45,433 nt of DNA from an uncultured Methanosarcinales archaeon (GTDB taxonomy: Archaea > Nanobdellota > Nanobdellia > Woesearchaeales > GW2011-AR4). Positions 27,412 through 43,594 of this stretch are shown here, in pieces. The position numbers and the translations under genes are program-made. The stretch lies in the NCBI GenBank assembly GCA_964524225.1, contig CAZGEW010000002.1, forward strand, positions 1-45,433. Direction: 5' to 3'. Position 1 is the first letter of the stretch, and each line of letters opens with the position of its first letter. A model generated the notes under the pieces. It was not told the origin of the DNA. It worked only from the letters and a program-made list of their open reading frames with translations, and did not search any database.

Positions 27412-28341
27412 TTATATAGTAAAGGTCAATTCTTTTATCCTCTTAACAACATCATTTATTAAATAATCTGGTGTAGAAGCTCCGGCACTAACTCCAATTT
27501 TTTCCTTTCCAATAAACCATTCTTTTTGTAATTGTTCTTCTGATTGTATAAAATAGCTTTCTACTCCTAATTCTTTGCATTTTGCATAAAGCTCTTTTGA
27601 GTTGCTTGAGTTTTTGCCTCCAATGACAATCACGATATTAGATTCTTTCGCTAATTCCTCTGTATCAAATTGTCTTTGCTTTGTCGGATTGCATATGGTA
27701 TCAACATAGCCATATTTTTTTGTCAAGTCCTTCATACTTAGAGGAATCTCTTCAAACTTTGCATCAATTAATTTGGAGTTTACATCATCAATAAGTTTCT
27801 TAAATCCATAAACTGACATTGTTGTTTGTGCAATAATTGCTACCTTCTTAAAACTATTTTTATTTATGTAATCAACAACTAAATCTGATTGCTCTGGGCT
27901 TTCCGCAATAAAAGTTTCATTACCTTTTATGTAGTAGCTTGTACCTATGGCCTCTGGATGATTCTTCTTACCAAAAATTATTACCTCGTAACCATTCTTT
28001 TTTAGCTTTATAGCTACATTATGTACTAATGTAACAAGTGGGCATGTTGCATCATTTAGGTTTTTCCCTTTGACAATGGATTTTTTCTCAAGAATTTCAT
28101 AAGTAGTCCCAGGTTCACCATGGGCTCTTAAAATAGTAACAGCATTTTGTGGAATATTATTGATACCGTTAACAAAAACAACTCCTTTATCTTGAAGATT
28201 TTTTATTACCTTTTCATTATGCACAAGCTGGCCTAGAACATAAGTTTTTCCTTTGTTATTTAATGCAACTTCTTCTGCAATTTCAATTGCCTTTTTTACA
28301 CCAAAGCAGAATCCTGCATGCTTTGCAACTTTAATGTCCAT
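27412..28341 (-). CDS. ispH: 4-hydroxy-3-methylbut-2-enyl diphosphate reductase
   Basis: Three Fe-S cysteine contexts: AKHAGFCFGVKKAIE, DATCPLVTLVH and VDTICNPTKQRQ. Confidence 0.85.
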   Translation of the reverse strand: MDIKVAKHAGFCFGVKKAIEIAEEVALNNKGKTYVLGQLVHNEKVIKNLQDKGVVFVNGINNIPQNAVTILRAHGEPGTTYEILEKKSIVKGKNLNDATCPLVTLVHNVAIKLKKNGYEVIIFGKKNHPEAIGTSYYIKGNETFIAESPEQSDLVVDYINKNSFKKVAIIAQTTMSVYGFKKLIDDVNSKLIDAKFEEIPLSMKDLTKKYGYVDTICNPTKQRQFDTEELAKESNIVIVIGGKNSSNSKELYAKCKELGVESYFIQSEEQLQKEWFIGKEKIGVSAGASTPDYLINDVVKRIKELTFTI

Positions 28342-28368
28342 TTTTTTAGTTTGTTATACATAATTAAC

Positions 28369-28824
28369 TTATTCTCTGTCTAGCTCATGCGACTTAACAA
28401 TTGATTCATAAACTTCAATCATATCCTTTAACCAATCCCCTCTCTCAAATATTGACTTCCACTCAGGGTGAGAGTTATATTTTTTATATACCCATTCTAA
28501 TCCTTCTAGATTTGATAGAGGGAACATTCCATTAGAAATCTCTATACTATCAAATGATTTAGGATTGTAAGTTAATTTGGCAATTCCTCTTAAGTCAAAA
28601 TTCTTCACTAAATCGTCAATATGTACATCACCAAATACGGCAAATGTATTTTTAGGAAAGTTTGCATATCTAAATTGAAGAGTATGACTCATCTCATAAC
28701 GTGGTGGTAGCACGGATTTTGGAGTAACTAGAATTCTCTGGCCTGCATAAATCAGGACAGTCTCTGCCATTTTGTAAACTTGTTCTTCACTAATAGTTTT
28801 AATTGTCAAACTTGAAGTTTCCAT
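28369..28824 (-). CDS. hypothetical protein embedded between ispE and ispH
   Basis: 151-aa ORF on the same strand as the MEP genes. No family recognised. Confidence 0.5.
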   Translation of the reverse strand: METSSLTIKTISEEQVYKMAETVLIYAGQRILVTPKSVLPPRYEMSHTLQFRYANFPKNTFAVFGDVHIDDLVKNFDLRGIAKLTYNPKSFDSIEISNGMFPLSNLEGLEWVYKKYNSHPEWKSIFERGDWLKDMIEVYESIVKSHELDRE

Positions 28825-28999
28825 TTTTTTATTTTTTTATTGAAAATTTGACATTCACTTCTTCTGTAGTTGCTTCCTTTTGGGTTTCATTTTGCTGTTC
28901 AGTTGCTTGTTGGTTTATTTGTTCTACCTTTTGCTCAGGATTTTCTTTTTGCTCCTGTTTTTGTTTTTCTTCTTTTTCTTTTAATTTTAATTTCCGATT

Positions 29000-29848
29000 T
29001 TAAATAGTTTTTGTCAAGAAAACAAATGGGTAGTCATATTGCATCTTGAAAAATGCCTCTCTTGCCTCGTAAATGCTGTTGAATATACCAAAAACAGTTG
29101 GGCCTGAGCCTGAAACACATGCATTCAATGCATCATTTTTCAATAAATTATTCTCTATTTCATCTATGATTTTATATTTTTTAATAACAATAGGTTCAAA
29201 ATCATTATGCAAATTATTTGCTATGGCTTTAATATCTTTTTTTTCTAAAGCCTTGATAAGACTATTTATTTCCGATTTAGTCCTTACTCTCGATTTTTGT
29301 TTGTCAAATGCAGAGTAAGCCCACTTAGTAGAAATCCTAAAGCCAGGGTTTATAAGTACAATGTTAATGCTAAATGATTTCTTGACTCTTTTTATTTTTT
29401 CTCCTATGCCTCCAACTAATGCTACATTTTCACCTATAAAAAAGGGGGCATCAGAGCCTATTTGGGAAGCTATGTCAATAAGTTGCTTTTCTTTTAGCCT
29501 TAATCCCCATAGTTTGTTTAAGTTCAGCAACACTGTAGTTGCATTACTGCTTCCACCTCCTAAGCCAGCCTCAATTGGAATATTTTTTTCAATATAAATC
29601 CTAACTCCGTACTTTAATTTATATTTAGTTTTTAGTAACAAAGCAGCTTTATATGCAAGATTATTTTCATTTTCAAGCTCTTTGTTTGTACACTCCACAA
29701 TTATCCTATCATCACTTATAGGCTCAATTGTTATGGTATCGCTTAAGTCTATTTTTTGCATTACAGATTGTATGTTATGGTAACCTGAGCTTAGTTTTTT
29801 GCCTATTTTAAGATAAAGGTTTACTTTGGCGTAAGAGTTAAAAGGCAT
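29000..29848 (-). CDS. ispE: 4-diphosphocytidyl-2-C-methyl-D-erythritol kinase
   Basis: AKVNLYLKIGKK...GYHNIQSVMQKIDLSD and the GHMP motif PIEAGLGGGSSNATTVLL. Confidence 0.8.
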   Translation of the reverse strand: MPFNSYAKVNLYLKIGKKLSSGYHNIQSVMQKIDLSDTITIEPISDDRIIVECTNKELENENNLAYKAALLLKTKYKLKYGVRIYIEKNIPIEAGLGGGSSNATTVLLNLNKLWGLRLKEKQLIDIASQIGSDAPFFIGENVALVGGIGEKIKRVKKSFSINIVLINPGFRISTKWAYSAFDKQKSRVRTKSEINSLIKALEKKDIKAIANNLHNDFEPIVIKKYKIIDEIENNLLKNDALNACVSGSGPTVFGIFNSIYEAREAFFKMQYDYPFVFLTKTI

Positions 29849-30008
29849 ATTTAACTTGGAATTTTAATGATTTATTAAATTTATGTATAATTTTTTAACT
29901 ACTTGATAGAAACAAAAGATTTTTATAATAGGGTAGGTTAATACTATTTACTCAAGAATAACTTAGATTGAGCTTTGCAATGGGTACACAAATTCCAAGT
30001 AATGATAA

Positions 30009-30302
30009 ACTGAAAAACAAATAAGTATAGAAGTTGATCGTAGGGGAAGCATAGTCATTATTGGTTCTACTGACAAGATTGAAGGGTTTGAAGAGAATGA
30101 CAATTTACGTTACATTATTTCAAATGGGAGAGATTTTTTAAAAGGAGCAGTTGTAGGCCCTCATCCATTTCATATTGTTGGTGAACTGACAAGTTGTGTA
30201 GTGGATAATATTGAAAAAGCACTTGAGCAAATGGGCTATAATGGAGCTCTAACACTACCTCCTTGGAGAATTTACAAGAAAGAGGATAACTATCATTCTT
30301 AA
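30009..30302 (+). pseudogene. ~97-codon open frame without ATG start (possible gene remnant)
   Basis: Hand reading finds the frame open from about 30009 to a TAA at 30300-30302 (..RGSIVIIGSTDKIEGFEENDNLRYIISNGRDFLKGAVVGPHPFHIVGELTSCVVDNIEKALEQMGYNG..). There is no in-frame ATG near the 5' end. A 14-codon ATG ORF (29980-30024) lies just upstream in another frame. Confidence 0.25.
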
Positions 30303-31513
30303 ACCAAAGTTACAACAACAAAGCATTGCATTCCTTTAGCTTGTCCAAAAGATGTCAGGTTTTCTCCTGTTGTATAGGTAATCCCTATATTTTCTTTGTC
30401 TAACCCTAATATTTTTGAAAGTGATTGTATTATCTCCTCTGAATAAATTTCTAGTTTTGGTTTAATTGCTTCGATTGTAATTGATATATTGTTTAGTCGA
30501 TAATTCTTTTGCTTCATTTTATTTAAAATAACTTTTAAATATTCTTTACTGTTTGTCACACCTTTTTTGCACATCTCGTCTGAGTAGTGCCCTAATGACT
30601 TATCTCCAATAGCAGAGCTTATTGCATTGAATAATGCATGCAAAATAATATCTCCATCAGAGTTTGCTTCTAATCCAATTTCATTAGTTATTACATAGCC
30701 ACCTAAAATTAATTTTTTATTTTTGTTGATTGAAAATCTATGGCTATCGTGACCAATTCCGATTCGAAAAAATTTTTTTTTGCTTTTTATTCTTTTCATC
30801 AAAATCCCTTCTGCAATGCTTAAATCATCTTGTGTTGTTATTTTTATATTTTCGTAAGAGCACTCAATAATTTTCACTTTTTTGCCTAGCGCCTCAACTA
30901 AAGAGACATCGTCACTAAATCTCAATTTTTTCTTTTTTGCATTCTTAAAAGCTTCAACAAATAAGCCATATTTAATAGCTTGAGGAGTTTGAACTTGATA
31001 AACATTAGTTCTATCCATTGTTTTTTCAACAAAACAATCTCTTATCCTTTTAATTGTATCCTTTAAGCGAAATCCGGCAACTGCAGCACCATATTTTTTT
31101 GCTGCATTAATGCATTCAATTATTTCAGTTTCTTTAACTAATGGGTTGCTACCATTATGCACAACAATAATGTCCTTGCTTTTTGCATTTTTTATTGACA
31201 TTAAACCATTATAAACAGAGTCTTGCCTTTCTTTACCACCATTAATAACATACTTTATTTTATCAAATGCAAAAAAATTTTTGTGTGGCATGCAAGGCGA
31301 GCTCGTATCGCCTCGCTCGCCAAGTACCTCAAAAATTTTTTTGAAATATTCTTTTTGTGTTACAACAACAATCTCGTCAATTAACTTACAATCTTGAAAA
31401 GTTTTTATTGTGTAATAAATGATTGGATTATTTAATAATGGAAGAAATACTTTATTAATATTTACTTTCATTCTTTTGCTTTTGCCAGCGGCTAAGATAA
31501 TTGCGAAGTTCAT
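30299..31513 (-). CDS. ispDF: bifunctional IspD/IspF (MEP cytidylyltransferase / MEcPP synthase)
   Basis: N-terminal IILAAGKSKRM...GGKERQDSV (IspD) and C-terminal RIGIGHDSHRF...SDGDIILHAL (IspF). Confidence 0.85.
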   Translation of the reverse strand: MNFAIILAAGKSKRMKVNINKVFLPLLNNPIIYYTIKTFQDCKLIDEIVVVTQKEYFKKIFEVLGERGDTSSPCMPHKNFFAFDKIKYVINGGKERQDSVYNGLMSIKNAKSKDIIVVHNGSNPLVKETEIIECINAAKKYGAAVAGFRLKDTIKRIRDCFVEKTMDRTNVYQVQTPQAIKYGLFVEAFKNAKKKKLRFSDDVSLVEALGKKVKIIECSYENIKITTQDDLSIAEGILMKRIKSKKKFFRIGIGHDSHRFSINKNKKLILGGYVITNEIGLEANSDGDIILHALFNAISSAIGDKSLGHYSDEMCKKGVTNSKEYLKVILNKMKQKNYRLNNISITIEAIKPKLEIYSEEIIQSLSKILGLDKENIGITYTTGENLTSFGQAKGMQCFVVVTLV

Positions 31514-31524
31514 TTTTTAGAAAT

Positions 31525-33219
31525 TTAATAATTAATATGCAATTTGTTTAAAATTCTAATAGAATCTATTTTCTCTTGGCTTCTTACAACTGCCTCTTCT
31601 ATGAAAAATTTAGTTGCAAATTTTAATGCATCTTTTGTAATTTCAATATACTCATCATTTTTTGCTGAGAAATAACTAACTAAAGACATTGCAGAAGCAA
31701 GTTGTAATGCTCTTCGTTCTAACCTAGCACTAAAAGGTATAAATTGGAACTTTTCTTGAATTTCTTTAATTATAAAATCTCTCGCTTTTTCTATTTCTTG
31801 ATAAAGTTCTTCTGTAAGCAAAACATTTTTTTGAGGAAACTTGTCTTTTAATAATTCGTGTCTTGTAAGAATAGCATAAACTAAAGTTACATGGTCTCTA
31901 ATTTTAGTAGCATACTCCATTCTTATTTTCCCTAGCGCTAATTTTTTCTGGCTTTGGACAATTTCATTAAACCTTTCCTTTGTCATTTTATGCAAACTAC
32001 ATAACATTCTATCTTCAATAGCATTAAAATTTGGGTCGGATATAGTTACTTTGTATCCTTGCTCCAAAGTCTTTGTATTATAATTTGTTGCAAAAAACGA
32101 ATTGAACCTGTAAGGACCTACTACACCAGTCTTTGTTTCATATCTTATATCCCTTTGCTCCATAGCCAATTTTAATGGTTCAACCATACCTTTATACTTA
32201 AACCAGTCGTTAAACTCCGGTACAATAAAATTAAATCTTCTATTCTGATACGCCTCTCCTATACATATGAATCTTACAGGCGTTATTCCACCACAATATC
32301 TATTTCTTCCTGGCAGACCATGAGCTAAAACTCCTTTTCTTTTATCCCCTCTAATCATATCATCAACAGCAAATGTTTTCCCAGTACCAGGAGCACCAAA
32401 AAAAGCCAAATTAAAGCCCGTGGTCATAGCAACTGTACCTTCTGGATTGAAGACAGTAGTGTCAGATAAAGAATACTGGTGCGTTATACCCAAAACACTA
32501 TCAAAATAAAGAATATGTCCAAACATTTTTTTAATATAATCAGCTATAAAATTTACTGTAAGTGATTTACCAAATTCTATAGTTTCATCAAGTCTTTCTT
32601 CTACAAGTTCTTTAAGATAATTTTCAAACTCATCATCCATTTTTTTGATTTCTTCTAATTCCTCTGCTGCTGCATCTGTGGTTACTGGAACTAGAGCTTT
32701 AGTTTTAATATATTCAGAATTTAGAATTTCCTTTACTAATGGTATAGTTTCTTCGTATAAGGAATAAGCGATTGTTCCATTTTTATCTATCTTTTCGATT
32801 ATATTATAACCGATTATCTTGTCTAAAGGATTTCTTACTTTTGGAAATCGAGCTTTTAAAACAGTAAAGTCAATAGGCAACTCATTTGTATTTGATTTTG
32901 CAACAAAGAATTCTAGAAGTTCTTTTACCATAACTCCTTGGTCGCTATATATACACTCAATAATATTTTTTTTGAATTTATTCCACGAACTGTCTATTGT
33001 AAGATTTCCATTTAGTACTGTATAATATCTTCCAAAAAAATTCTTATTTATATTTTTGCCGCTCTTTTCGAAAATATTTTTTGCACCTTCAAAAATCTCA
33101 ATCAAATCTTCCTCTGTTTTTATTTTAGATACTATCAGTTTGGTTTGTCCTATTTCATATCCAAAGAACTTCTTGAATATTAATTCAATTTCCTTTATCT
33201 TTTCATTGTCAAGAGTCAT
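31525..33219 (-). CDS. AAA+ ATPase of the MoxR/MCM/ChlI (helix-2-insert) type with ~260-aa N-terminal region
   Basis: Walker A FFGAPGTGKT (aa 273-282), Walker B-like FNFIVPEFND, LKLAMEQRDIRYETKTG (compare MCM AMEQQTISIAKAG and MoxR LEAMQE), sensor-1 FFATN, IEDRM (compare LLDRF). Its ATG directly abuts the stop of the methyltransferase gene. Confidence 0.6.
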   Translation of the reverse strand: MTLDNEKIKEIELIFKKFFGYEIGQTKLIVSKIKTEEDLIEIFEGAKNIFEKSGKNINKNFFGRYYTVLNGNLTIDSSWNKFKKNIIECIYSDQGVMVKELLEFFVAKSNTNELPIDFTVLKARFPKVRNPLDKIIGYNIIEKIDKNGTIAYSLYEETIPLVKEILNSEYIKTKALVPVTTDAAAEELEEIKKMDDEFENYLKELVEERLDETIEFGKSLTVNFIADYIKKMFGHILYFDSVLGITHQYSLSDTTVFNPEGTVAMTTGFNLAFFGAPGTGKTFAVDDMIRGDKRKGVLAHGLPGRNRYCGGITPVRFICIGEAYQNRRFNFIVPEFNDWFKYKGMVEPLKLAMEQRDIRYETKTGVVGPYRFNSFFATNYNTKTLEQGYKVTISDPNFNAIEDRMLCSLHKMTKERFNEIVQSQKKLALGKIRMEYATKIRDHVTLVYAILTRHELLKDKFPQKNVLLTEELYQEIEKARDFIIKEIQEKFQFIPFSARLERRALQLASAMSLVSYFSAKNDEYIEITKDALKFATKFFIEEAVVRSQEKIDSIRILNKLHINY

Positions 33220-35940
33220 CTAAACCACTTCTTTAGCTTTGTCTTCTATGTTTATCCCTTTTTTATTTTTTATATCTGAAAATAATAAATATTTTATTTT
33301 TTTATGTAGTTTGTCTTTTCTGTTTGCTAAAGAGCCAATTTTATTTATGGCTTCTTTTTCCCTAATATCTGGGATAACAATATAAGCAGGAATGTTTTGA
33401 TTTGGTGTTGCAGCAAATAAATTTCTAAACCTATTTATTCCGCTGTCTATTGTTGTGCTTTTCTCTATTTCAAAGGCTGCAACTATTGTGTCTCCTTTTA
33501 ACCATAACAAATCAATTTCTCTTATAATATCAAATGCCTGTCGATTTAGTCCATATTGCACATTATTACCCATAGGGGTGCTCATTTTTCTAAATTCAAC
33601 ATATTTTCTTTGTTCTGTTTGACCGATATGAGATGAGTATCCTTCATCGTCTCCTAAAGCTGCCAATTGTTTTATCATTAGGTCATGGAGTGATTCTTCT
33701 GTTGTGAGTTCTTCTCCTGTTAAAGTCTGCTGAGCAACCTTTGGCTTCTCTCTTTTTTCTACAAAATGCAAAAGTTGCTGTTGTGCTTGTGAGCCGAGTT
33801 CTTTAAGTTGCCAAGTTCTTTCGTCTTTCTTTTCTGCTATTCTATTGAGAACTTTAGAAATCTCTTCATATTCTGCAGCATTTCCATTTATTAAGTTAGT
33901 AAAAACTGCTTCAAGAACTTCATCCATAGTTGCTTGTTTCCTTTCATAAAGCAATGAACGTATTAGGTATTCAATTCTAGCTTCGACGGGAACATACTCT
34001 ATTGGCTTAACTTCGCCTTTTTCATCAATATTCTCTTTAAAATACCACTTTCCATTTTTTTCGACAAAATCTTTTTTTAAGAAGGGGGTAATATCCTTTT
34101 CTCCAAATCTATGTAGTAACCCATTATTTAATAAAAATGGAACTAACCTCATGTAAATTGTTGATAACTTAGCACCACCATGATATTCAATTGTTTCACC
34201 TGCAACTTTTCTTACTTTATTGCCAATTTCAACTTCTTCAATCATCTTTATTTCTGGTTTCTTTTCTGCTTTTTGGAAGGATAAGACGAAATCACCGAGC
34301 ATTGAACCAGTTCTTCGAGTTTGGATTGTATTAACATATTGTTGTATTGGTGGTTGATAAATCAACCCATCTTCTTCCGAGAGAATAAATCCTGCGTCAT
34401 GAGCTGCAAGGTGGATGGCATTCCATACAGCAAAATCTTTGTTATGGAAAGTCATTACCATCCATCTTCGTGGTTTAAGAACACGATAACATTCTTTGAA
34501 TATTTTGTATAGCAAATCTCGATACTCCCTAAGACTCCTTCCATGTTCTTTACTTACTACTGCTTCTTCTTTATCATCAATCATAGACTCTTTGTTGAGT
34601 ATGCCGCTAACCCATATCCAATAAAAATTGCTGAGTTCCGCGTATAATACATTATTTCCATAAGGAGGATCTGTTATTATAACATCTACAGATGCATCGA
34701 GTGCGGGAATTTTTGTTGAACTACCCATGTATGTAAAACACGAGGAATTTTGCAAATCTGCGAATTTCTTTGCAAAAGAACAATATGTACCAATTTCTTG
34801 ATTAGAATATTTTTTACCTCTACTAATCGCATTTTGTCTGTTCTCCCAAGCATCCCAAACATTAATCTCACAAAAAACCTCAGGTAACCAATAAACGCTA
34901 CTTGCCCATTCAATGGGTTTACCTCCTTGCCATCCGGGATTCCTGAATACTATTCTATTTGTAAATCTCAGAGAAGCGCTAAAGATGAAAGTTAAAAGTG
35001 ATTTTATATCTTCATTTACCTTAAGTTTTTTTATCTCTGTAGCTAATATTGTGTTGGCAAGAAGATTACGATTTGTGAACCATTCTGTAAAAGATTTAAT
35101 ATGAGCGTTGTAAGGTCTTCTTAGCTCCCACCAATCAGGCATCTTTGATTTGGGATACCATAAATTTTCTTTTTTGATTATTCCTAAAGCATTTTTACTA
35201 ATTTTAGATGCTAATTTTAAATCTTCTAGTTTTGGTTTAAAATTAATTTTATTTTTACATTTAGGACAGTCTAACTGAACCAAAATCAATTCTTCACCTA
35301 TCCTTTCACATTCGGAAGGTCTAAACTCTTCATTACATCCTTTATTGCAACATCTAAATTTCCCAGCTGACACGCCAGCAATTTTTTCACCTTTACCCAC
35401 TCTTTGAGCATCATTAAGTATAACTGGTTTTTTACAACCTTTGCATTTTACGACATTACTCCACTCGAACCAATTAGCTGGAACTTCTGATTTACATTTT
35501 GGGCAAGTAGTGAGATATAAAGAATCTATCTTAGGTTTACATTTCTCCTTGATTTTTAAAAGAATATCCTCAAAATTCTTGAGATCTGCATATAGGACTT
35601 CATTTTCCGTAATAAACGTCGCCATTGGATTCAGGTCAACACCAATCACTTTTCTTCTCAATCTTAAAGCTTCAACAACAGTAACACCACCTCCACAAAA
35701 AGGGTCAAGAATTATGCTTCCAGGATTAGAATAATGCCTAATCAATTCATTGAAAACAGAATAAGGTCTTCTTGCAAAATATCTGTGCATCTTGTAAATA
35801 GGAGTATGTGGTTTAGCAAGAGTTCCATGGTCAATAGGCTTTAAGTTATCTAAATCTTTAAGCCCTTCCTCTTTTATCTGTTTATTTATAAAATCTTCAG
35901 TAGTTTTTGGCTCGTCATTGTTTAGATTCATTTTCACCAA
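33220..35940 (-). CDS. Zn-ribbon DNA methyltransferase (DUF1156/COG1743-like architecture) with C-terminal restriction-endonuclease-like domain
   Basis: 906 aa. HRYFARRP, then motif I ILDPFCGGGVT (aa 77-87). Two Cys4 clusters (CPKC...CKGC at aa 146-169; CCNKGC...CPKC at aa 197-228). Motif IV IITDPPYG (aa 421-428). C-terminal IREID(810)LLWLKGDTIVAAFE(824)IEK(827)STTIDSGINRFRNL. Confidence 0.75.
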   Translation of the reverse strand: MVKMNLNNDEPKTTEDFINKQIKEEGLKDLDNLKPIDHGTLAKPHTPIYKMHRYFARRPYSVFNELIRHYSNPGSIILDPFCGGGVTVVEALRLRRKVIGVDLNPMATFITENEVLYADLKNFEDILLKIKEKCKPKIDSLYLTTCPKCKSEVPANWFEWSNVVKCKGCKKPVILNDAQRVGKGEKIAGVSAGKFRCCNKGCNEEFRPSECERIGEELILVQLDCPKCKNKINFKPKLEDLKLASKISKNALGIIKKENLWYPKSKMPDWWELRRPYNAHIKSFTEWFTNRNLLANTILATEIKKLKVNEDIKSLLTFIFSASLRFTNRIVFRNPGWQGGKPIEWASSVYWLPEVFCEINVWDAWENRQNAISRGKKYSNQEIGTYCSFAKKFADLQNSSCFTYMGSSTKIPALDASVDVIITDPPYGNNVLYAELSNFYWIWVSGILNKESMIDDKEEAVVSKEHGRSLREYRDLLYKIFKECYRVLKPRRWMVMTFHNKDFAVWNAIHLAAHDAGFILSEEDGLIYQPPIQQYVNTIQTRRTGSMLGDFVLSFQKAEKKPEIKMIEEVEIGNKVRKVAGETIEYHGGAKLSTIYMRLVPFLLNNGLLHRFGEKDITPFLKKDFVEKNGKWYFKENIDEKGEVKPIEYVPVEARIEYLIRSLLYERKQATMDEVLEAVFTNLINGNAAEYEEISKVLNRIAEKKDERTWQLKELGSQAQQQLLHFVEKREKPKVAQQTLTGEELTTEESLHDLMIKQLAALGDDEGYSSHIGQTEQRKYVEFRKMSTPMGNNVQYGLNRQAFDIIREIDLLWLKGDTIVAAFEIEKSTTIDSGINRFRNLFAATPNQNIPAYIVIPDIREKEAINKIGSLANRKDKLHKKIKYLLFSDIKNKKGINIEDKAKEVV

Positions 35941-36085
35941 CTTTTTGTAATACCTTTTGCATAAATAATTCCACTTGTTTTGATAGTATTATCCCTTTCT
36001 TATCACAATAGGCTTTGTATCTATTATAAATATCTTTTTCAATGCTTAGTGCAATAGTTTTCTTGACCAAATTTATCACCCTCAT
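35915..36085 (-). CDS. ribbon-helix-helix (CopG/Arc-like) protein, candidate controller of the downstream module
   Basis: MRVINLVKKTIALSIEKDIYNRYKAYCDKKGIILSKQVELFMQKVL shows a beta-alpha-alpha pattern. Start trimmed to Met12 because a TATA box overlaps the first 11 codons. The 3' end overlaps the methyltransferase start by 26 nt. Confidence 0.55.
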   Translation of the reverse strand: MRVINLVKKTIALSIEKDIYNRYKAYCDKKGIILSKQVELFMQKVLQKVGENESKQ

Positions 36086-36103
36086 ATAAGCATATATGAA
36101 CCT

Positions 36104-36122
36104 ATATATAAATATCACGTGA
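36104..36122 (-). promoter_or_regulatory. TATA box (TTTATATATA) plus adjacent 8-nt palindrome TCACGTGA upstream of the RHH gene
   Basis: The TATA element lies about 19-28 nt upstream of the ATG at 36085, which fits a leaderless archaeal mRNA. The palindrome sits at the BRE-proximal side and is a possible operator. Confidence 0.4.
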
Positions 36123-36206
36123 GCATGTCCAGTGCTTATTTACTATATTGAAAAGAATTATTATACTTAGTTCTATAAAATTATTATTCAATTCTTAACA
36201 ATCACA

Positions 36207-37367
36207 TCATTTATTAATTATTATTTCTTCTTCAATAAAATCTTTCGTTTCCTCTTTTATTTTTCTGTCAACTTCGAGAACTTCTTTTAAGGTAGGTTTA
36301 CTTATTAATTTATGCTCATCCATCATTTTTCTTATCAATTTTTGTATATCTAAAAATTTTATCTTATTTTCTAAGAATGCATGTACAGCAACTTCATTTA
36401 CAGCATTCATTACTGCTGGTAGCGTCCCTCCAACAGTTCCAGCCTCATAGGCATATTTTAAGCATGGGAACCTCTCAAAATCTGGCTCATTAAAATTAAG
36501 ATTTTTTATTTTTGTTAAATCAAGCTGTGGATTATTGCTTTGTAATCTTTTTGGATAAGTTAGTGCATATTGTATTGGGATTTTCATATCCGGCAATCCA
36601 AGTTGAGCTATTACAGATTTATCAACAAATTCTACCAAGGAATGAACAATACTTTGCGGATGAATAACAATTTTTATTTTATCATACGGAATTCCGAAAA
36701 GCCAATGTGCTTCTATGACCTCAAGTCCTTTATTCATCAAAGTTGCACTATCAATTGTGATTTTATTACCCATGTTCCAAGTGGGATGTTTTAACGCATC
36801 TTGAATAGTTACATTTTCTAATTGCTGTTTTGTATAATTTCTGAATGGACCACCTGAGCATGTTATTGTTATTTTATTAACTTCTTTGACATTTTCTCCA
36901 TTTAGGCATTGAAAAATAGCACTGTGTTCTGAATCAATAGGCATCAAAGCAATATTATTTTTTTTGACTTCTTCCATAATTATAGAACCTGCTGCAACTA
37001 ATGTTTCTTTATTTGCAAGTGCAATATTTTTCTTGCTCCTTATTGTATTATACGTTGGCTCAATACCAACAGAGCCAACTAAGGCATTGACAATTGTGTC
37101 AGCTTCATTTAATGTTGCAATTTTATTTAAACCCTCTACGCCAAAGTAGACTTGGCAAGGACTGAAGTTTAACAAATCATCGACTTTGCTTTTATCCATT
37201 ATTGCAACTGCTTTTGGTTTGAATTCTTTAATCTGCTTTAATAACAATTCAGAATTTTTATTTGCTGTTAATCCAACAATTTTGAATTCATTAGGATATT
37301 GTCTAATTATATCTAAAGTTTGAGTGCCAATGCTTCCTGTTGAGCCTAAGATAGAAAGGTATTTCAT
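36207..37367 (-). CDS. dxr: 1-deoxy-D-xylulose 5-phosphate reductoisomerase
   Basis: LSILGSTGSIGTQTLDII NADPH motif, and PIDSEHSAIFQC...GGPF...HPTWNMG. Confidence 0.9.
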   Translation of the reverse strand: MKYLSILGSTGSIGTQTLDIIRQYPNEFKIVGLTANKNSELLLKQIKEFKPKAVAIMDKSKVDDLLNFSPCQVYFGVEGLNKIATLNEADTIVNALVGSVGIEPTYNTIRSKKNIALANKETLVAAGSIIMEEVKKNNIALMPIDSEHSAIFQCLNGENVKEVNKITITCSGGPFRNYTKQQLENVTIQDALKHPTWNMGNKITIDSATLMNKGLEVIEAHWLFGIPYDKIKIVIHPQSIVHSLVEFVDKSVIAQLGLPDMKIPIQYALTYPKRLQSNNPQLDLTKIKNLNFNEPDFERFPCLKYAYEAGTVGGTLPAVMNAVNEVAVHAFLENKIKFLDIQKLIRKMMDEHKLISKPTLKEVLEVDRKIKEETKDFIEEEIIINK

Positions 37368-37549
37368 TTTTTAAATTTTAATAGTAAGCTTATTTTGTTT
37401 ATAAATTCTAATGCAAATATTATAGAAGATTTTGCATCCTCATTAGTAACAGGTTTTGCTTTTTCTAAAAGAGCTTTGGCTTCTTCGAAATCTGGTGTTT
37501 TTTTCTTTACATATCCGTTGTCCAGATAATTTTTAAATAAGTTTATCAT
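37364..37549 (-). pseudogene. truncated HEPN-like remnant (61 aa, no R-x4-6-H motif)
   Basis: Resembles only the N-terminal helix region of the intact HEPN at 508-993. The start overlaps the MNT stop by 1 nt. The stop overlaps the dxr ATG (ATGA). Confidence 0.4.
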
Positions 37550-38121
37550 TATATAATTTTCACGTAGCCATGCAGAACAATGCCATTAGCTATAGCATTT
37601 TTGAATTCATTTGAGCTTTTAGCGAGGGAAGGCAGAATATGAATATTAATCTTCCTATTTAGCTCTTTTTCAAATTCATTTGTAAAATTCCCTAAATTTT
37701 CCTGATTTTTTTGTGGAAATATTACAAGTACATCAATATCACTTTTTTCAATATCTTCGCCTTGGGCAAATGAGCCAAACAGCACAATTGCTTCTGGATT
37801 GTTGAATATTTCCACGAATTTGTCAACAAATAGGTACCTTTTTAATCTATATAGGTTAAATATAAGCTTGTAGAAGCGATAAGCTTCAGATTCAAGATTT
37901 GCTTTAATGTTGGTTGTTAATGGAGTTTCCTCTATTTTGATGACATCATATTTTTTGAGTTCTTTAATGGAGTCAATAATAGCTGTAGTTGAAAAACCTG
38001 TCTCTTTTTCAAGCATCCTTATATGGAATGTTTTATTTGGGTAATTAAATATAAGTTCTGCTACCTTAAATATGCTTTCTCTAAAAAATAATATCTTGTT
38101 CTTGTCTTTTTTTTGTGACAT
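37549..38121 (-). CDS. minimal nucleotidyltransferase (MNT) with N-terminal wHTH-like region
   Basis: IVLFGSFAQGEDIEKSDIDVLVIF. Same architecture as the MNT at 987-1535. Confidence 0.7.
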   Translation of the reverse strand: MSQKKDKNKILFFRESIFKVAELIFNYPNKTFHIRMLEKETGFSTTAIIDSIKELKKYDVIKIEETPLTTNIKANLESEAYRFYKLIFNLYRLKRYLFVDKFVEIFNNPEAIVLFGSFAQGEDIEKSDIDVLVIFPQKNQENLGNFTNEFEKELNRKINIHILPSLAKSSNEFKNAIANGIVLHGYVKII

Positions 38122-38313
38122 TTGTATTATATAAATAACAACTGTTATTTAAATGTTACGGTTTTAAATTGGAAAAATGGCTGACTTGTTTGACACTTTG
38201 GTTATTGAGCCGCTGAATAAAAGTAAGAAAATGGCTGTTATGAGGAGGGTTTAGACTTATTTTTGTGATTTGGTACATCTATACCAATTATGTATTTATT
38301 AATTTACGTATGT

Positions 38314-41300
38314 TTAATAACTTTGTTCTTGATTGCAAATCCAAGAAGATCCGATTTTTAAATCATAAATATCACCCAAATGAGATCTAGAATCCTCTTT
38401 TGTGCATAATAATTTTATTTGAAATTTATTATTCTTATGCTCTACCTTGGCAAATAATTTAAGCGTTGATTTATTAACAACGTCAGACATTTTCCAATAT
38501 ATTCTATATAACCCATCTTCACAAAATTCGTCATTAATCAAGGTATCAGGAGATGAAAGTGTTGTATCAGTACAATCTATTATCCAAGAGCCGTATCTCC
38601 CAAATTCTAAAGTCGTTTGATCATCTTGAAAAATAGAATATGTATTTCCTAATGGTGTTTTTATGAGCAATTCCCCAGATGTGGCTCCTGTCATAAGATG
38701 ACTCTTCGCATTGAATCTATCATTTAAGAATCCTCTTAATACATCATCATATTTTAATATATCTTCATTTTTACAAAAATAAAATGAGCCAGGAGAGTAT
38801 TCAACGCAGTGCCTTGTATCCAAACCTAATTTTAATGGTTCTTCAAAAAAGCTGATATATTTAAGTTTTTTTCCTGTTGTTTCTGGGATATACTTTGCTT
38901 TTCCATCAAAATAATTTGTCCAAATATAGGAGTTATCTGCTAATTCTGAATCAAAAATCTTAAGGTGATAGTGATAATAACATTCGTCACAATTATCTAA
39001 GTAAAAAAATTTCCCATTTCTTGGAGTATGTATCAATTCTGGATTTGCATCAGACCAATAATTTAATGGTGTATAAGAATTAATACCGAAGTACAGATTT
39101 TGATTAAAATAAGGAATTAGATTATCTGTAATTTTTATATATTGAGTTTTTAAATCTTCCTGACTAATATTTTTAATAAAATCTGTAAATGGATAATTAA
39201 TTGTTAGAGGAGTAACCATATAATTTTGAGTTGTATAATAATCTGAACCTATATCTCTCGCATGTGGAGAGAAATAGATCATATAATCGTTAAAGAATAA
39301 ATTATCTTCATTGTTTGAATATATACCAAAATCAACATACTTAAATGGACCAGTCCATGGATGAAAATAATATAATAAATTAGAATAGTAATCTTCTTTT
39401 TGAAGTATTTCGGTCATAAATCCGTAGACTTCAAGATTTTTTGAACTTGCTACATCAACTATATTTTGTTCAATATGTTGTGCTTTAGTTTCATCAAAAA
39501 TAATAAAGTTCATAGTATCGGTATCTATATGATCAATGAAATAATTAACATTTAACCGGTCATATGTCGGATAATATGCATTTTCAATTGATAACCCTAC
39601 TATATCAAACTTATTTTCCAATAAATATATAGTATAATTAAAATTATACTTATCTCCATACTCAAAAAATGAATACCTTGTAACTTCCCCATCTTCATTA
39701 ATAATCGTAAAATAATTATCATGATACCAATAACCTCGATTGCCTATTGGTCTAGTTCCAATAAAATTTATTTTAAATTCATTTAACTTAGAAAAGCCGA
39801 CAGGCAGATTAATTGATTGGGAATAAGTTTTAAGATCGCCACAATTTTCATAAATATCAATTTTAATATCCCCTGAATAATATCCATTAGACAAGTTATC
39901 CAGATTTAATTCTGATTTAAAGTTATAAGTAGAAATTTCCTTGTTTAAACATAGCTCGTTTTCTATTATTTTAAAAGTAAAAGATTCATCGGCTTCAATA
40001 TTATTAACATTTAAATCGCTCAAAATTACGCTAATGTCTTGTTTTAGATAATCATTGTTAATAATATCAAAAGTAAACTCTCTTGAACTATTTGAATGAT
40101 TAATTATACCTAGATTTAATATATGGGGTTTTATATATGCCTCTAAGGGTTTAATAATTCTTGAAGCGTTAACCCTTCCACCACCTTGTGTGAAGATATC
40201 ATAACCTAAATTAACTGCAGATTGTGTTAGTATTGATTTGATGTCTTCTGGAGCATATCCATAGGAATTAGCATCAATTAACAAAGCCGCAACACCACTA
40301 ATCATAGGTGTAGACATTGACGTTCCCCTTAATGTTAAATGTTCATCATCGAAGCAGTCAGCGTCATATTGAGAATAAGCATCAGCAGAGCAAATTGAAA
40401 CACCAGTTGCAGAAATGTCAGGTTTAATAATATTTTCTTGGTTAAATAATACTGGGCCTTTGCCACTAAAATAAGCTATACTATCTTCTTTATCCGTTGC
40501 ACCTACTGTAAATGCATTTCTCGCACAACCTGGGCAGTCAATATTACCATAGTCTGCACCTGACCAAAAATTTCCTGCTGCTACAACTACAAGACTTCCA
40601 ATATTATTTGCATTATCTACAGCAATAGACAATGGGTCATTTGGAGTTCCTGATCCACCGATACTCATGCTAATTATATCAGCTTTATCAGAAAAATCAC
40701 CATCACCATTAAGGTCTGTTGCTTTTTCAAGTGCTTTAATTATGTCTGAGTCATAGCCATAACCATCAGAATCTAAGATTTTATAAATTTGAAGACTTGC
40801 TCCCGGTGCAACACCTTTTAACTCTCCTTCAGAGGCCACTATACCTGCAACATGAGTTCCATGACCACGATCATCAAATGGGTCATTATCCAAATTTACA
40901 AAATCATAGCCATCTATTATCTTAGGGCAATTATCTAAATTAATACAAGAACCAAAGTCTTTATGTGAGTAGTCTATTCCTGTGTCAAGAATAGCTATCT
41001 TTACACCACTTCCGTTATATCCGTAAGACCATACTTGATTAGCTCCAATTAGTGGAACAGAATCCATTAATGAAGCATATTTAATCTTATCTCTATGAAT
41101 TTTAACATGTGGAAATCTGTCTTTGATTTCCTTTAGTGATCTGGAAGATGGATTTGATATAAAGATTCCATTTATTACATTTTTGACGGAACCCTTGTAA
41201 TGGTCTCCTACTAAACTTCTTATACTATTTTGGATTTTATCTATTTTTTCAATTTCTGACGATCTTTTAAATTGAGGTATGCTAATTAAGCCTTTCCCTA

Positions 41301-41577: not shown

Positions 41578-41578
41578 T

Positions 41579-41959: not shown

Positions 41960-42058
41960 GTGTATTATTTATTTTAAAGACTTTATAATTCTTACTAAAC
42001 CTCGACCGTCCATTAAGGTAATGCGTCCAAGGCTATTGAATATAACATAATTTGATTT

Positions 42059-43114: not shown

Positions 43115-43190
43115 TTTAAAAAATTGTTAGGTTTTTATACATATCAATTTTCGAAAGATTTAAATTTAGGAATTGCATTGAGATATTAAA

Positions 43191-43496: not shown

Positions 43497-43594
43497 CCAC
43501 TCATCAAATTGCTTCTTTGCTTTCTTCTTGTATTGTCATTTTAAGTTTTTATTAATATTGAATTTATTTTTAAAAATAAAATATAAAAAAATAA

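What the first reader, a model, noticed from the sequence alone, without database searches (positions are those of the whole stretch)
31525..36122. Three-gene RHH, Zn-ribbon methyltransferase/endonuclease-like fusion and MoxR/MCM-clade AAA+ module wedged into the MEP operon: candidate uncharacterised defence system
Three tightly packed genes sit between dxr and ispDF on the same strand. (i) A ~57-aa ribbon-helix-helix protein has its own TATA box and an adjacent TCACGTGA palindrome. (ii) A 906-aa protein has a start that overlaps the RHH gene by 26 nt. It carries HRYFARRP plus AdoMet motif I at the N-terminus, two Cys4 Zn-ribbon clusters in a ~300-aa insert, and the DPPY catalytic motif at aa 424-427. 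This is the motif I ... TRD ... motif IV order of the COG1743/DUF1156-like 'methylase with Zn ribbon' architecture. A helical linker then leads to a ~150-aa C-terminal segment with a restriction-endonuclease-like signature (D810 ... E824-I-E-K827, not a textbook ExK). (iii) A 564-aa protein has an ATG that directly abuts the methylase stop (33220/33219). Its core has Walker A GAPGTGKT, LAMEQRDIRYETKTG, FFATN and IEDRM, the hallmark string of MoxR/MCM/ChlI-type AAA+ proteins, preceded by ~260 aa of unassigned, possibly DNA-binding, sequence. The pairing of a modification enzyme with a ring-ATPase recalls BREX (PglX plus BrxL) and the DUF1156-DUF499 islands. However, there is no PglZ/BrxC, DUF499-sized ATPase, HsdR/S, DrmA/B or McrB-type GTPase here. 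From memory I cannot place this gene triplet in a named system.
Basis: partly seen in the sequence, partly recalled or inferred. Interest (0 to 1): 0.8.

Follow-up and report, generated by a model that had tools for sequence, protein, structure and literature searches.

The report
Methylase-nuclease fusion with MCM-like ATPase
A 4.7-kb cassette inserted into an archaeon's isoprenoid operon encodes a DNA methylase fused to a restriction-type nuclease, followed by an unannotated ring ATPase shaped like the MCM replication helicase. The pair recurs in bacteria and archaea and looks like an unnamed, ATP-driven kind of restriction-modification defence.

Summary
Three co-directional genes lie between dxr and ispDF on a Woesearchaeota contig. 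About 30 related contigs have dxr directly next to ispDF and none carries these genes, so the module is an insertion.

- **Gene 2** is a PglXI/BrxXI-like DNA methyltransferase. It has motif I, a nested target-recognition insert with two Cys4 clusters, then DPPY. Helix-turn-helix (HTH)-like domains follow, then a C-terminal NmeDI_C restriction-nuclease domain with invariant D810, E824 and E826.
- **Gene 3** matches no Pfam, NCBIfam, PADLOC, PHROGs or PDB sequence. Its confident AlphaFold model matches MCM helicases (Foldseek E about 4e-8).
- **The conserved core is two genes.** The methylase-nuclease is followed by the ATPase, usually within -8 to +2 nt, in every locus examined from the methylase side and throughout the window's ATPase clade (DPANN archaea, Planctomycetota, Stahlbacteria, Levyibacteriota).
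- **The ribbon-helix-helix (RHH) gene is a swappable regulator**, seen only in close relatives.
- **Other ATPase clades have other partners:** Type IIG enzymes, or a coiled-coil protein in Bathyarchaeia.

Best reading (confidence 0.58): an ATP-dependent restriction-modification system with an MCM-like motor. It resembles BREX parts (PglXI, BrxL) but lacks PglZ and BrxC. I call it a new variant of a known kind. No function has been tested.

The parts
31525..36122 (-). Whole inserted cassette: promoter/operator, RHH, methylase-nuclease, ATPase. It sits between the dxr stop (36207) and the ispDF start (31513).
   Evidence: About 30 related contigs (dxr 65-84% identical) have dxr followed by ispDF, mostly 0-170 nt apart, and none has the three genes. 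The native ispDF leader AAATTTCTAAAAAATG is retained directly after the ATPase stop.
36104..36113 (-). TATA-box-like element TTTATATATA upstream of the RHH gene.
   Evidence: Read directly from the sequence. TATATATA is invariant in the three aligned RHH-bearing loci. That it acts as a promoter is inferred.
36082..36099 (-). Inverted repeat TCATATA-TGCT-TATATGA between the TATA box and the start codon: candidate RHH operator.
   Evidence: Conserved in the window, L012 and L009 (alignment A4). It lies about where an archaeal transcription start would fall. Binding is not tested.
36115..36122 (-).
   Evidence: A single copy in the window; 14 of 100 shuffles give at least one. Not conserved: TCACGTAA in L012, absent in L009.
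35915..36070 (-). Small ribbon-helix-helix (Arc/CopG-like) protein, 51 aa from TTG 36070. The mechanical ORF extends to GTG 36118.
   Evidence: Weak Arc-like repressor match (phrog_3180, E 0.0023) and DUF6364 (E 0.0019). Homologues sit upstream of the methylase only in L009/L015 and L012. The start-codon column and Shine-Dalgarno-like element are conserved.
33220..35931 (-). Methyltransferase-nuclease fusion, 903 aa from ATG 35931 or 906 aa from TTG 35940.
   Evidence: Pfam N6_N4_Mtase 5.5e-21; PADLOC PglXI 1.9e-63 over aa 96-644. At least 1054 homologues; nearly all of the 120 listed carry N6_N4_Mtase with NmeDI_C.
35686..35706 (-). AdoMet-binding motif I, DPFCGGG (aa 79-85).
   Evidence: Nearly invariant in 35 homologues.
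34741..35613 (-). Nested target-recognition insert (about aa 110-400) with two Cys4 clusters.
   Evidence: Eight nearly invariant Cys columns. Cys motif positions. A nested TRD is the hallmark of BrxXI/PglXI-type methylases according to PMC12839542.
34660..34671 (-). Catalytic motif IV, DPPY (aa 424-427).
   Evidence: D, P, P and Y are nearly invariant.
33721..34263 (-). Helical, winged-helix-like linker region (about aa 560-740).
   Evidence: AlphaFold model m0a36a7c8b1e2 shows helix-helix-helix-strand-strand units. Foldseek gives weak matches to winged-helix domains. This corresponds to the C-terminal HTH triad described for BrxXI methylases.
33223..33708 (-). C-terminal NmeDI_C restriction-nuclease domain (about aa 745-906) with D810, E824 and E826.
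   Evidence: Precomputed PF27126 hit on fragments 100% identical to the window protein. The topology is alpha-beta-beta-beta-alpha-beta, with D810 at the start of strand 2 and E824/E826 in strand 3. All three residues are invariant, including in standalone NmeDI_C proteins. Foldseek gives only weak hits to FokI, EcoT38I, BsaWI and SgrAI.
31525..33219 (-). 564-aa MCM-fold AAA+ ATPase of an unannotated family.
   Evidence: No hit in Pfam, PADLOC, NCBIfam, PHROGs or PDB sequences. AlphaFold pLDDT 89.5. All top 50 Foldseek PDB hits are MCM subunits, E 4e-8 to 8e-7, probability 1.0.
32695..33219 (-). ATPase N-terminal region (aa 1-175): two winged-helix-like units.
   Evidence: Secondary-structure order in the model. 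The region also occurs on its own in other proteins. A DNA-binding role is inferred.
31930..32457 (-). AAA+ core (aa 255-430).
   Evidence: Motifs from column counts over 48 sequences:
- Walker A G275-T282, with K281 and T282 invariant.
- Atypical Walker B [T/P]-E335-F-N-D338.
- Beta-hairpin 357-372 with conserved K363.
- Sensor-1 N379.
- Arg-finger-like R404.
Strand order comes from the model.

Best explanation
This is a mobile, self-regulated restriction-modification cassette whose restriction arm is ATP-driven.

- **Methylase-nuclease.** The 903-aa protein reads a DNA motif through its nested Zn-ribbon recognition domain and C-terminal HTH-like domains. It methylates host sites through its DPPY active site, which probably makes N6-methyladenine. 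It carries the cutting activity in its C-terminal NmeDI_C domain, a PD-(D/E)xK variant with D810...E824-x-E826 (the BamHI-type D...ExE pattern, from my own knowledge).
- **ATPase.** The translationally coupled 564-aa protein most likely forms an MCM-like ring on double-stranded DNA. It would use ATP to translocate or clamp DNA and so license or position cleavage at unmodified sites. McrB does this for McrC, and BrxL is thought to act similarly in BREX.
- **RHH.** The small RHH protein represses the cassette's own promoter through the inverted repeat over the transcription start. This would play the timing role of a controller (C) protein when the cassette enters a new host.

Shown here: gene structure, domain identities, fold, conserved linkage, and the insertion. 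Inferred: ring formation, translocation, dependence of cleavage on the ATPase, methylated base and motif, autoregulation, and any anti-virus effect.
For: 1. **Methylase identity.** N6_N4_Mtase and PglXI (1.9e-63). Motif I, eight Cys and DPPY are conserved.
2. **Nuclease domain.** PF27126 NmeDI_C lies on identical fragments. R.NmeDI is a proven Mg-dependent Type II enzyme (PMC2095814). The model has the canonical topology. D810, E824 and E826 are invariant in 35 fusion proteins and in 14 distant standalone NmeDI_C proteins, some of which JGI names 'type II restriction enzyme'.
3. **ATPase.** Confident model. All of the top 50 Foldseek hits are MCM subunits. K281, T282, E335, N379 and R404 are invariant.
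4. **Linkage.**
   - The methylase is directly upstream of the ATPase in L001-L009 and L092-L094.
   - It is also directly upstream in 16 of the 80 best genome loci.
   - The gap is -8 to +2 nt in 14 of 15 loci.
   - All methylase-linked ATPases form one clade in a neighbour-joining tree.
5. **Independent ties between the family and restriction-modification.**
   - L026, nested in that clade, has separate Type II methylase and nuclease genes followed by the ATPase (REase_II 1e-108).
   - Another clade sits beside Type IIG enzymes (PDLC03630, 5.8e-93).
6. **Mobility.**
   - The junction is empty in about 30 relatives.
   - Copies with 80-90% identical ATPase lie in other contexts, in metagenome-assembled genomes labelled Aenigmarchaeota, Micrarchaeota and Methanosarcinales.
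   - Some loci are rich in defence genes: L092 has Mrr_cat, AIPR and PDDEXK_3; L007 has AAA_14/DUF4143 and SLFN_AlbA_2.
7. **Swappable upstream regulators.** These are RHH (window, L009, L012), a weak winged-helix/HTH-like 161-aa protein (L007, all hits below the Pfam cutoffs) and HTH_17 (L092). The operator-like repeat is conserved.
8. **Cellular, not viral or plasmid-borne.** One relative in 2.9 million viral contigs and none in PLSDB plasmids.
Against: - No experiment exists for any family member.
- The structure search for the nuclease half gave no hit at E <= 0.001. A profile of the domain finds nothing among PDB sequences. The canonical lysine is not conserved.
- The Walker B aspartate is replaced by T or P, so ATP hydrolysis is not guaranteed.
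- The largest ATPase clade recovered (36 of 80 loci, Bathyarchaeia) pairs with a coiled-coil protein. It lies in a syntenic housekeeping context with no methylase. About 18 loci have no obvious partner. The family's basic activity is therefore not intrinsically restriction.
- Many cassette flanks are housekeeping genes rather than defence islands.
Confidence: 0.58

Rival explanations
1. BREX-like exclusion without cutting. The methylase marks self DNA. The MCM-like ring loads on unmodified foreign DNA and blocks its replication or transcription, as proposed for BrxL. The C-terminal NmeDI_C domain serves as a DNA-binding or sensor module rather than an active nuclease.
For: The methylase's closest defence-library relative is the Type-3 BREX methylase PglXI. 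BrxL is described as an MCM-family AAA+ that forms ATP-dependent tunnels around dsDNA, and Type-4 BREX BrxL lacks the Lon domain (PMC12839542 and PMC12707154). The nuclease lacks the canonical Lys and its structural match is weak.
Against: Three acidic residues are invariant at the canonical catalytic positions across 25-30% identical relatives. That pattern is hard to explain for a non-catalytic domain. PglZ and BrxC, which define BREX, are absent. No BrxL model matches the ATPase.
Confidence: 0.15
2. The methylase-nuclease is a self-sufficient fused restriction-modification enzyme of Type IIC/IIG kind. The ATPase is an accessory second layer. It could sense anti-restriction proteins or stalled complexes and trigger a backup response, or it could act as an assembly or turnover factor that limits self-cutting.
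For: R.NmeDI itself needs no ATP (PMC2095814). Related ATPase clades exist without any restriction-modification partner. The ATPase appears with three different restriction-modification architectures, as an add-on module would.
Against: In the methylase-fusion family the ATPase was present in every locus examined from the methylase side, with start and stop codons overlapping or abutting. This pattern suggests an obligatory stoichiometric partner rather than an optional one.
Confidence: 0.15
3. The module is not a defence system. It could be an epigenetic or DNA-maintenance module, or a selfish element whose MCM-like protein is a replication or mobilisation helicase.
For: The fold is closest to replicative MCM. 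The Bathyarchaeia clade is vertically inherited among housekeeping genes. The cassette is clearly mobile.
Against: - No integrase, Rep, transposase, terminal repeats or tRNA target were seen at the insertion.
- The family is almost absent from viral contigs and absent from plasmids.
- The model shows winged-helix units where MCM has its N-terminal OB/Zn domain.
- The obligatory partner is a methylase fused to a restriction-nuclease domain.
Confidence: 0.08

Closest known systems
PglXI / BrxXI methyltransferase of Type-3 BREX, and the DUF1156 methylases of DUF499 'BREX-related' systems
   Same: The order is motif I, nested recognition insert, DPPY, followed by HTH-like domains. PADLOC PglXI scores 1.9e-63 over aa 96-644. 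The architecture matches the description in PMC12839542.
   Different: This protein carries an extra C-terminal NmeDI_C nuclease domain. Its partner is an MCM-fold ATPase, not BrxC/DUF499, PglZ or a Snf2 helicase. NCBIfam DUF1156_antiphage scores 49 bits against a cutoff of 1000.
BrxL (BREX Type 1 and Type 4)
   Same: An MCM-family AAA+ core preceded by putative DNA-binding domains, encoded in a methylation-based defence locus. The Type-4 form lacks the Lon-like domain (PMC12839542).
   Different: No sequence similarity is detectable. PADLOC BrxL, Pfam BrxL_N and ATPase models do not match. There is no Lon/RadA-like C-terminal domain. No PglZ or BrxC context exists.
McrBC and the LlaJI-type restriction-modification systems that use a McrB-like NTPase
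   Same: A ring AAA+ NTPase teamed with a PD-(D/E)xK nuclease, where nucleotide hydrolysis licenses cleavage. LlaJI-type systems combine this with protective methylases (PMC12707154).
   Different: The ATPase is nearest to MCM, not McrB, and no McrB or AAA_5 model matches. The nuclease is fused to the methylase rather than being a separate McrC. The expected target is unmodified DNA, not modified DNA.
R.NmeDI and fused Type IIC/IIG/IIB restriction-modification enzymes
   Same: It shares the NmeDI_C nuclease domain. Methylase and nuclease lie in one polypeptide, as in Type IIC/IIG enzymes.
   Different: R.NmeDI is a 351-aa standalone, ATP-independent enzyme with a separate m5C methylase (PMC2095814). 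Here the order is methylase then nuclease, with an obligatory ATPase gene. From memory, typical Type IIG enzymes have the nuclease at the N-terminus.
MCM replicative helicase
   Same: It is the best structural match (E about 4e-8, 340-470 aligned columns). The MEQ...hairpin...sensor-1 N...DR string resembles the MCM box (sequence read directly; the MCM motif is from memory).
   Different: No sequence-level match, even with a profile. The N-terminus is winged-helix-like rather than OB/Zn. Walker B is [T/P]EFND. The gene context is restriction-modification, not replication.
Controller (C) proteins of restriction-modification systems
   Same: A small DNA-binding protein gene sits immediately upstream of, and overlaps, the restriction-modification genes. 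A conserved inverted repeat lies in its own promoter.
   Different: The fold is RHH rather than the Xre-type HTH typical of C proteins (from memory). It is replaced by other folds in other loci. Regulation is not tested.

Membership tests
BREX (any type) | PglZ phosphatase-family protein in the locus | tested here: not met
   The genes flanking the cassette in the window are dxr, ispDF, ispE, an NTP_transf_2 protein and a subtilase. A PADLOC scan of ten other window ORFs, including the largest, found no PglZ. No PglZ lies within 6-10 kb in L001-L009 or L092-L094.
BREX (any type) | BrxC/PglY ATPase in the locus | tested here: not met
   Same scans as above. The only ATPase in the cassette matches no BrxC model.
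BREX (any type) | PglX/PglXI-type methyltransferase | tested here: met
   PADLOC PDLC02541 PglX|PglXI, E 1.9e-63, aa 96-644 against profile positions 189-722 of 919.
BrxL | Sequence match to BrxL N-terminal and ATPase models | tested here: not met
   No BrxL model appears among PADLOC or Pfam hits for the ATPase at E <= 1.
BrxL | MCM-family AAA+ core | tested here: met
   All top 50 Foldseek hits are MCM subunits, probability 1.0.
BrxL | C-terminal Lon/RadA-like domain (Type-1 form) | tested here: not met
   The 564-aa protein ends after the AAA+ lid and a helical region. The 818-aa variants have a roughly 258-aa C-terminal extension with no Lon hit.
MCM helicase family | Match to the MCM sequence family, and an N-terminal OB-fold/Zn domain | tested here: not met
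   No Pfam MCM hit. A profile of the family finds no MCM chain in the PDB and stays confined to 197 representatives among 1.84 billion. The N-terminus is modelled as winged-helix-like units.
McrBC | McrB-type AAA+ GTPase and a separate McrC nuclease | tested here: not met
   No McrB, AAA_5 or McrC model hit. The nuclease is fused to the methylase.
DUF1156-DUF499 (BREX-related / Hma-type) systems | DUF1156 methylase at family threshold, with a DUF499 ATPase and a helicase | tested here: not met
   NF042963 DUF1156_antiphage scores 49.4 bits against a cutoff of 1000. HmaB gives only 1.7e-13. No DUF499 or helicase neighbour.
Restriction-modification system (generic) | DNA methyltransferase with intact AdoMet-binding and catalytic motifs | tested here: met
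   DPFCGGG and DPPY are present and conserved. N6_N4_Mtase 5.5e-21.
Restriction-modification system (generic) | Cognate endonuclease with intact catalytic residues | tested here: inconclusive
   NmeDI_C domain. D810, E824 and E826 are invariant and sit on an alpha-beta-beta-beta-alpha-beta core. Foldseek gives no hit at E <= 0.001, and activity is untested.
Restriction-modification system (generic) | Site-specific methylation protects, and unmethylated DNA is restricted | not testable with these tools
   This needs methylome data or heterologous expression.
Type IIG restriction-modification enzymes | Gamma-class N6-adenine methylase (Eco57I/MmeI-like) fused to an N-terminal nuclease | tested here: not met
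   The window methylase gives no Eco57I, MmeI or N6_Mtase family match and no REase_MTase_IIG model among its best 25 PADLOC hits. Its nuclease is C-terminal. By contrast, the roughly 1050-aa neighbours of a different ATPase clade do match Type IIG models (5.8e-93).

The most novel reading that the evidence does not exclude
The unannotated MCM-fold ATPase family may be a portable 'restriction motor'. On this reading it has been recruited independently by at least three architectures of restriction-modification enzyme: the PglXI-like methylase-NmeDI_C fusion, separate Type II methylase and nuclease genes, and Type IIG enzymes. That would define a new ATP-dependent class of restriction systems shared by archaea and bacteria. 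It would also offer a minimal two-protein model of what the MCM-like BrxL does in BREX. The Bathyarchaeia branch, paired with a coiled-coil protein, would then be an exaptation of the same motor for a non-defence DNA transaction.
Probability: 0.35. Interest if true: 0.78.

Novelty: new variant of a known kind. Interest (0 to 1): 0.62.

Why it matters
- **A motor type not reported in restriction systems.** To my knowledge, known ATP- or GTP-dependent restriction systems use SF2 helicase motors (Types I, III, ISP) or the McrB GTPase. An MCM-fold ring ATPase as the obligatory partner of a restriction-modification enzyme has not turned up in any library or paper searched here.
- **A tractable model for BREX.** The methylase is the closest relative of the Type-3 BREX enzyme, and the ATPase has the fold of BrxL. 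A two-gene system could therefore serve as a model for the unresolved question of how BREX-type methylation sensing couples to an MCM-like motor.
- **An annotation gap.** The ATPase family is uniformly labelled 'hypothetical'. It comprises at least 1331 sequence clusters and occurs in 302 of about 185,000 species genomes. A family model would improve defence-system annotation in DPANN archaea, Bathyarchaeia, Planctomycetota and candidate phyla.
- **Possible enzyme use.** These fusion proteins might also provide restriction or methylation specificities from uncultured lineages.

Tried and rejected
- **Sequence identification of the ATPase failed everywhere.** Pfam, PADLOC, NCBIfam and PHROGs gave nothing. 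PDB searches with the single sequence and with a profile gave nothing. PLSDB plasmids gave nothing. A profile search of 1.84 billion representatives recovered only the family itself (197 hits) and did not reach MCM, BrxL or MoxR.
- **The local Pfam copy lacks PF27126.** L001's methylase, which carries a precomputed NmeDI_C hit, also failed to match it locally. NmeDI_C membership of the window protein therefore rests on precomputed hits to 100%-identical fragments.
- **The nuclease domain could not be tied to a solved structure or a local Pfam family.** A profile of the domain against PDB sequences gave 0 hits, and local Pfam gave nothing meaningful. Foldseek on the C-terminal half gave only weak restriction-enzyme and winged-helix hits.
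- **The Bathyarchaeia coiled-coil partner is not a diverged methylase or ATPase domain.** hhalign gave probabilities below 1%, so this idea is rejected.
- **TCACGTGA as the operator is rejected** in favour of the conserved TCATATA-N4-TATATGA repeat.
- **Literature searches found no description of this pairing.** I searched NmeDI; MCM-like with restriction-modification; MCM with anti-phage and methyltransferase; and methyltransferase-endonuclease fusion with AAA+. The held library is incomplete, so this is absence of evidence only.
- **No signs of the insertion mechanism were seen.** There is no tRNA in the window. By-eye reading of the junctions showed no obvious target-site duplication or terminal repeats; the one repeat finder failed, so this was not searched systematically.
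- **BrxL in the Foldseek hits could not be checked.** Only the top 50 of 607 hits are shown, so I could not see whether BrxL structures appear lower in the list.


Full report
**1. Observation**

The minus strand of the window carries, in order: dxr (36207-37367), a small ORF (35915-36118), a 906-aa ORF (33220-35940), a 564-aa ORF (31525-33219) and ispDF (30299-31513). Pfam confirms dxr and ispDF.

- The ATPase ATG follows the methylase TAG with no spacer.
- Only 11 nt separate the ATPase stop from the ispDF ATG.
- An identical ATPase sequence is held in NCBI under a Candidatus Woesearchaeota archaeon name.

Three details need correction.

- **RHH start.** An alignment of the RHH upstream regions from three loci places TTG 36070 (window), GTG and ATG in the same column. 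A GGTG(A/T)T Shine-Dalgarno-like element precedes them. The RHH is therefore probably 51 aa.
- **Methylase start.** The methylase probably starts at ATG 35931, giving 903 aa. This is the length of its 92%-identical homologue P0121.
- **Palindrome.** TCACGTGA is not conserved, whereas TCATATA-N4-TATATGA (36082-36099), downstream of the TATA-like box, is.

**2. The methylase-nuclease**

Pfam finds N6_N4_Mtase (5.5e-21) in two stretches arranged as a circular permutation of the model: motif I first, DPPY later. The best PADLOC model is PglXI (1.9e-63, aa 96-644). NCBIfam's DUF1156 anti-phage model scores far below its cutoff.

In 35 homologues, motif I, eight cysteines in the insert and DPPY are nearly invariant. 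According to PMC12839542, a recognition domain nested in the methylase core followed by three HTH-like domains is the signature of the Type-3 BREX methylase BrxXI/PglXI and of DUF1156 methylases. The window protein has that layout.

It also has an extra C-terminal domain.

- Fragments 100% identical to the window protein carry a precomputed PF27126 NmeDI_C hit. Nearly all of the 120 listed homologues do too.
- R.NmeDI is an experimentally characterised Mg-dependent Type II endonuclease that needs no ATP (PMC2095814).
- My AlphaFold model of aa 560-906 (pLDDT 81.7) ends in an alpha-beta-beta-beta-alpha-beta unit. D810 sits at the start of the second strand, and E824 and E826 sit in the third.
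- These three residues are invariant in the fusion proteins. They are also invariant in standalone NmeDI_C proteins only 25-32% identical, where position 827 is S, H or C rather than K.
- The motif is thus D...ExE. From memory, this is the arrangement in BamHI.

The structure search itself was weak. FokI, EcoT38I, BsaWI and SgrAI appear only at E 0.06-0.7. A sequence profile of the domain finds no PDB entry. I therefore treat 'nuclease domain' as well supported and 'active nuclease' as inferred.

**3. The ATPase**

It matches nothing in Pfam, PADLOC, NCBIfam, PHROGs or PDB sequences, not even as a 48-sequence profile.

- The AlphaFold model is confident (pLDDT 89.5, pTM 0.75).
- All 50 listed Foldseek PDB hits are eukaryotic or archaeal MCM subunits (E 4e-8 to 8e-7, probability 1.0, 340-470 aligned columns).
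- K281, T282, E335, N337, N379 and R404 are invariant. The residue before E335 is T or P rather than the usual Walker B aspartate.
- The first 175 residues are modelled as two helix-helix-helix-strand-strand (winged-helix-like) units. This region also occurs alone in other proteins.
- A variant of about 818 aa has a roughly 258-aa C-terminal extension with no recognised domain.

**4. Conservation of the pair**

Starting from the ATPase, distant homologues (44-84% identical) were examined in Sedimentisphaerales, an uncultured Planctomycetota genome, Aenigmarchaeota and several unassigned metagenome contigs. All have an N6_N4_Mtase plus NmeDI_C gene directly upstream; in one case it is split into two ORFs.

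Starting from the methylase, three further long contigs all have an ATPase homologue directly downstream.

A scan of one genome per species found 302 loci. Of the best 80, 16 have the fusion methylase upstream. In 14 of 15 of these, the gap between stop and start is -8 to +2 nt.

The RHH is found only in the window's closest relatives, L009/L015 and L012. L007 has a weakly winged-helix/HTH-like 161-aa protein instead, and L092 has a 62-aa HTH_17 protein. The conserved core is therefore two genes plus an exchangeable small regulator.

**5. The wider ATPase family**

A neighbour-joining tree of the 80 loci shows that partner type follows ATPase clade.

- **Methylase-linked clade.** It contains the window, DPANN archaea, Stahlbacteria, Levyibacteriota and Planctomycetota. 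L026 is nested within it and has separate Type II methylase and endonuclease genes (PADLOC REase_II 1e-108) followed by the ATPase.
- **Type IIG-linked clade.** A second clade sits beside enzymes of about 1050 aa that match Type IIG models (PDLC03630, 5.8e-93; Pfam Eco57I).
- **Bathyarchaeia clade.** This is the largest, with 36 loci. It is preceded by a 547-aa coiled-coil protein with no family hit and no detectable similarity to the methylase or ATPase. Its context is syntenic and housekeeping: AdoHcy hydrolase, NTP transferase, radical SAM and thioredoxin.
- **Unpartnered loci.** Others, in Thermococci, Archaeoglobi and Thermoplasmata, have no obvious partner.

The family is sharply delimited. 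It comprises 197 representatives among 1.84 billion at 50% clustering. It is almost absent from viral contigs (1 of 2.9 million) and absent from PLSDB plasmids.

**6. Insertion**

A scan with the dxr protein returned 80 metagenome contigs. About 30 of them have dxr 65-84% identical to the window's, followed by ispDF, mostly 0-170 nt downstream. None contains the methylase, ATPase or RHH.

The sequence immediately before the ispDF ATG in the window (AAATTTCTAAAAAATG) matches the native leader of relatives such as L096. The right edge of the insertion therefore lies within 11 nt of the ATPase stop. I saw no target-site duplication, terminal repeat, integrase or tRNA by eye or with ARAGORN, but I did not search for repeats systematically.

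ATPases 80-90% identical to the window's, each with the fusion methylase directly upstream, occur in other contexts. These are in metagenome-assembled genomes labelled Aenigmarchaeota, Micrarchaeota and Methanosarcinales. This indicates recent horizontal transfer, with binning error possible for the last.

**7. Mechanism**

The best-supported reading is a restriction-modification cassette in three parts.

- A PglXI-like methylase supplies site recognition and protective methylation.
- Its fused NmeDI_C domain supplies cleavage.
- A translationally coupled MCM-fold ring ATPase supplies ATP-dependent DNA handling that licenses or positions cleavage.

This is analogous to McrB-McrC and to LlaJI-type systems (PMC12707154). 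It also parallels what is proposed for BrxL, which forms ATP-dependent tunnels around dsDNA. The RHH would autoregulate through the conserved repeat over the predicted transcription start.

Gene structure, domain identities, fold, linkage and mobility are shown. Oligomeric state, translocation, ATP dependence of cleavage, the methylated motif and protection against viruses are all inferred. My confidence is 0.58.

The rivals are:

- BREX-like exclusion without cutting (0.15).
- A self-sufficient fused enzyme with an accessory ATPase (0.15).
- A non-defence role (0.08).

**8. Comparison and membership**

The cassette works like a hybrid of BREX parts and McrBC logic, but it is not a member of either.

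- PglZ and BrxC are absent from the window and from all other loci examined.
- BrxL, McrB and MCM sequence models do not match the ATPase.
- The DUF1156 family threshold is not met, and no DUF499 or helicase is present.
- It is not Type IIG by methylase class or by domain order.

It meets the generic sequence-level requirements for a restriction-modification system, except that nuclease activity is unproven. I found no paper describing the pairing. The June 2026 NCBIfam release has no model for the ATPase, and source annotations call it 'hypothetical'.

**9. Verdict**

This is a real, conserved and mobile two-gene system with a variable regulator. It is a new variant of restriction-modification whose novelty lies in the MCM-fold partner ATPase family. 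Interest is 0.62. It would moderately surprise a defence-systems specialist, and it offers a compact handle on the BrxL/PglXI problem, but it is not a categorically new principle.

Noticed in passing
window 27412-45391 (minus strand): A complete bacterial-type MEP isoprenoid pathway cluster lies on a DPANN (Woesearchaeota) contig: dxs 43595-45391, ispG 42059-43114, dxr, ispDF, ispE and ispH 27412-28341 (Pfam). This is unusual for archaea, which normally use the mevalonate route (from memory). The dxr-ispDF-ispE order is kept in about 30 related contigs.
   Followed up: partly
window 37364-38121 (minus strand): A 190-aa NTP_transf_2/Polbeta nucleotidyltransferase has PADLOC candidate-system hits (PDC-M05A 6.6e-17, PDC-S09). 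A 61-aa ORF whose start overlaps its stop lies just upstream of dxr, suggesting a toxin-antitoxin-like pair. Both are also present in relatives L104, L113 and L121.
   Followed up: partly
window 5746-8796 (plus strand): A 688-aa SMC-like ATPase matches the Lamassu LmuB model (PADLOC 4.5e-34; Pfam AAA_23). A 321-aa ORF precedes it. This may be a second defence system in the window.
   Followed up: no
window 38314-41577 (minus strand): A 1087-aa subtilase (Peptidase_S8 9.1e-57) sits inside the MEP cluster between ispG and dxr.
   Followed up: no
L096-L133, dxr-ispDF and ispDF-ispE spacers: The spacers in the MEP cluster of relatives vary from 0 to about 900 nt. L100 and L105 carry GC-rich hairpin-forming inserts in the dxr-ispDF spacer. 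These junctions therefore look like recurrent insertion sites.
   Followed up: partly
L009 4067-4291: The RHH homologue in the Aenigmarchaeota locus carries a 66-nt in-frame insert. The insert contains an 11-nt-arm inverted repeat, AAATGACTTTC-TTCG-AAAGTCATTT, with one mismatch.
   Followed up: no
L033-L091 (Bathyarchaeia loci), e.g. L049 1587-3227: A 547-aa coiled-coil protein with no Pfam or PADLOC hit always directly precedes the ATPase homologue in 36 loci. The context is conserved: AdoHcy hydrolase, NTP transferase, radical SAM and thioredoxin. This is an uncharacterised, apparently vertically inherited gene pair.
   Followed up: partly
ATPase aa 1-200 (window 32620-33219); proteins P0352-P0385: The N-terminal winged-helix-like region of the ATPase is found alone or in other architectures, in proteins of 200-660 aa.
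   Followed up: no
L001 10001-12457, L093 8725-11181: Many bacterial homologues of the ATPase (Planctomycetota and others) are about 818 aa. Their roughly 258-aa C-terminal extension has only a weak TPR-like match.
   Followed up: partly
L003 7300-9997: In one metagenome lineage the methylase-nuclease is split into two ORFs (245 aa and 615 aa) at the end of the recognition insert. An intact ATPase gene still follows.
   Followed up: no
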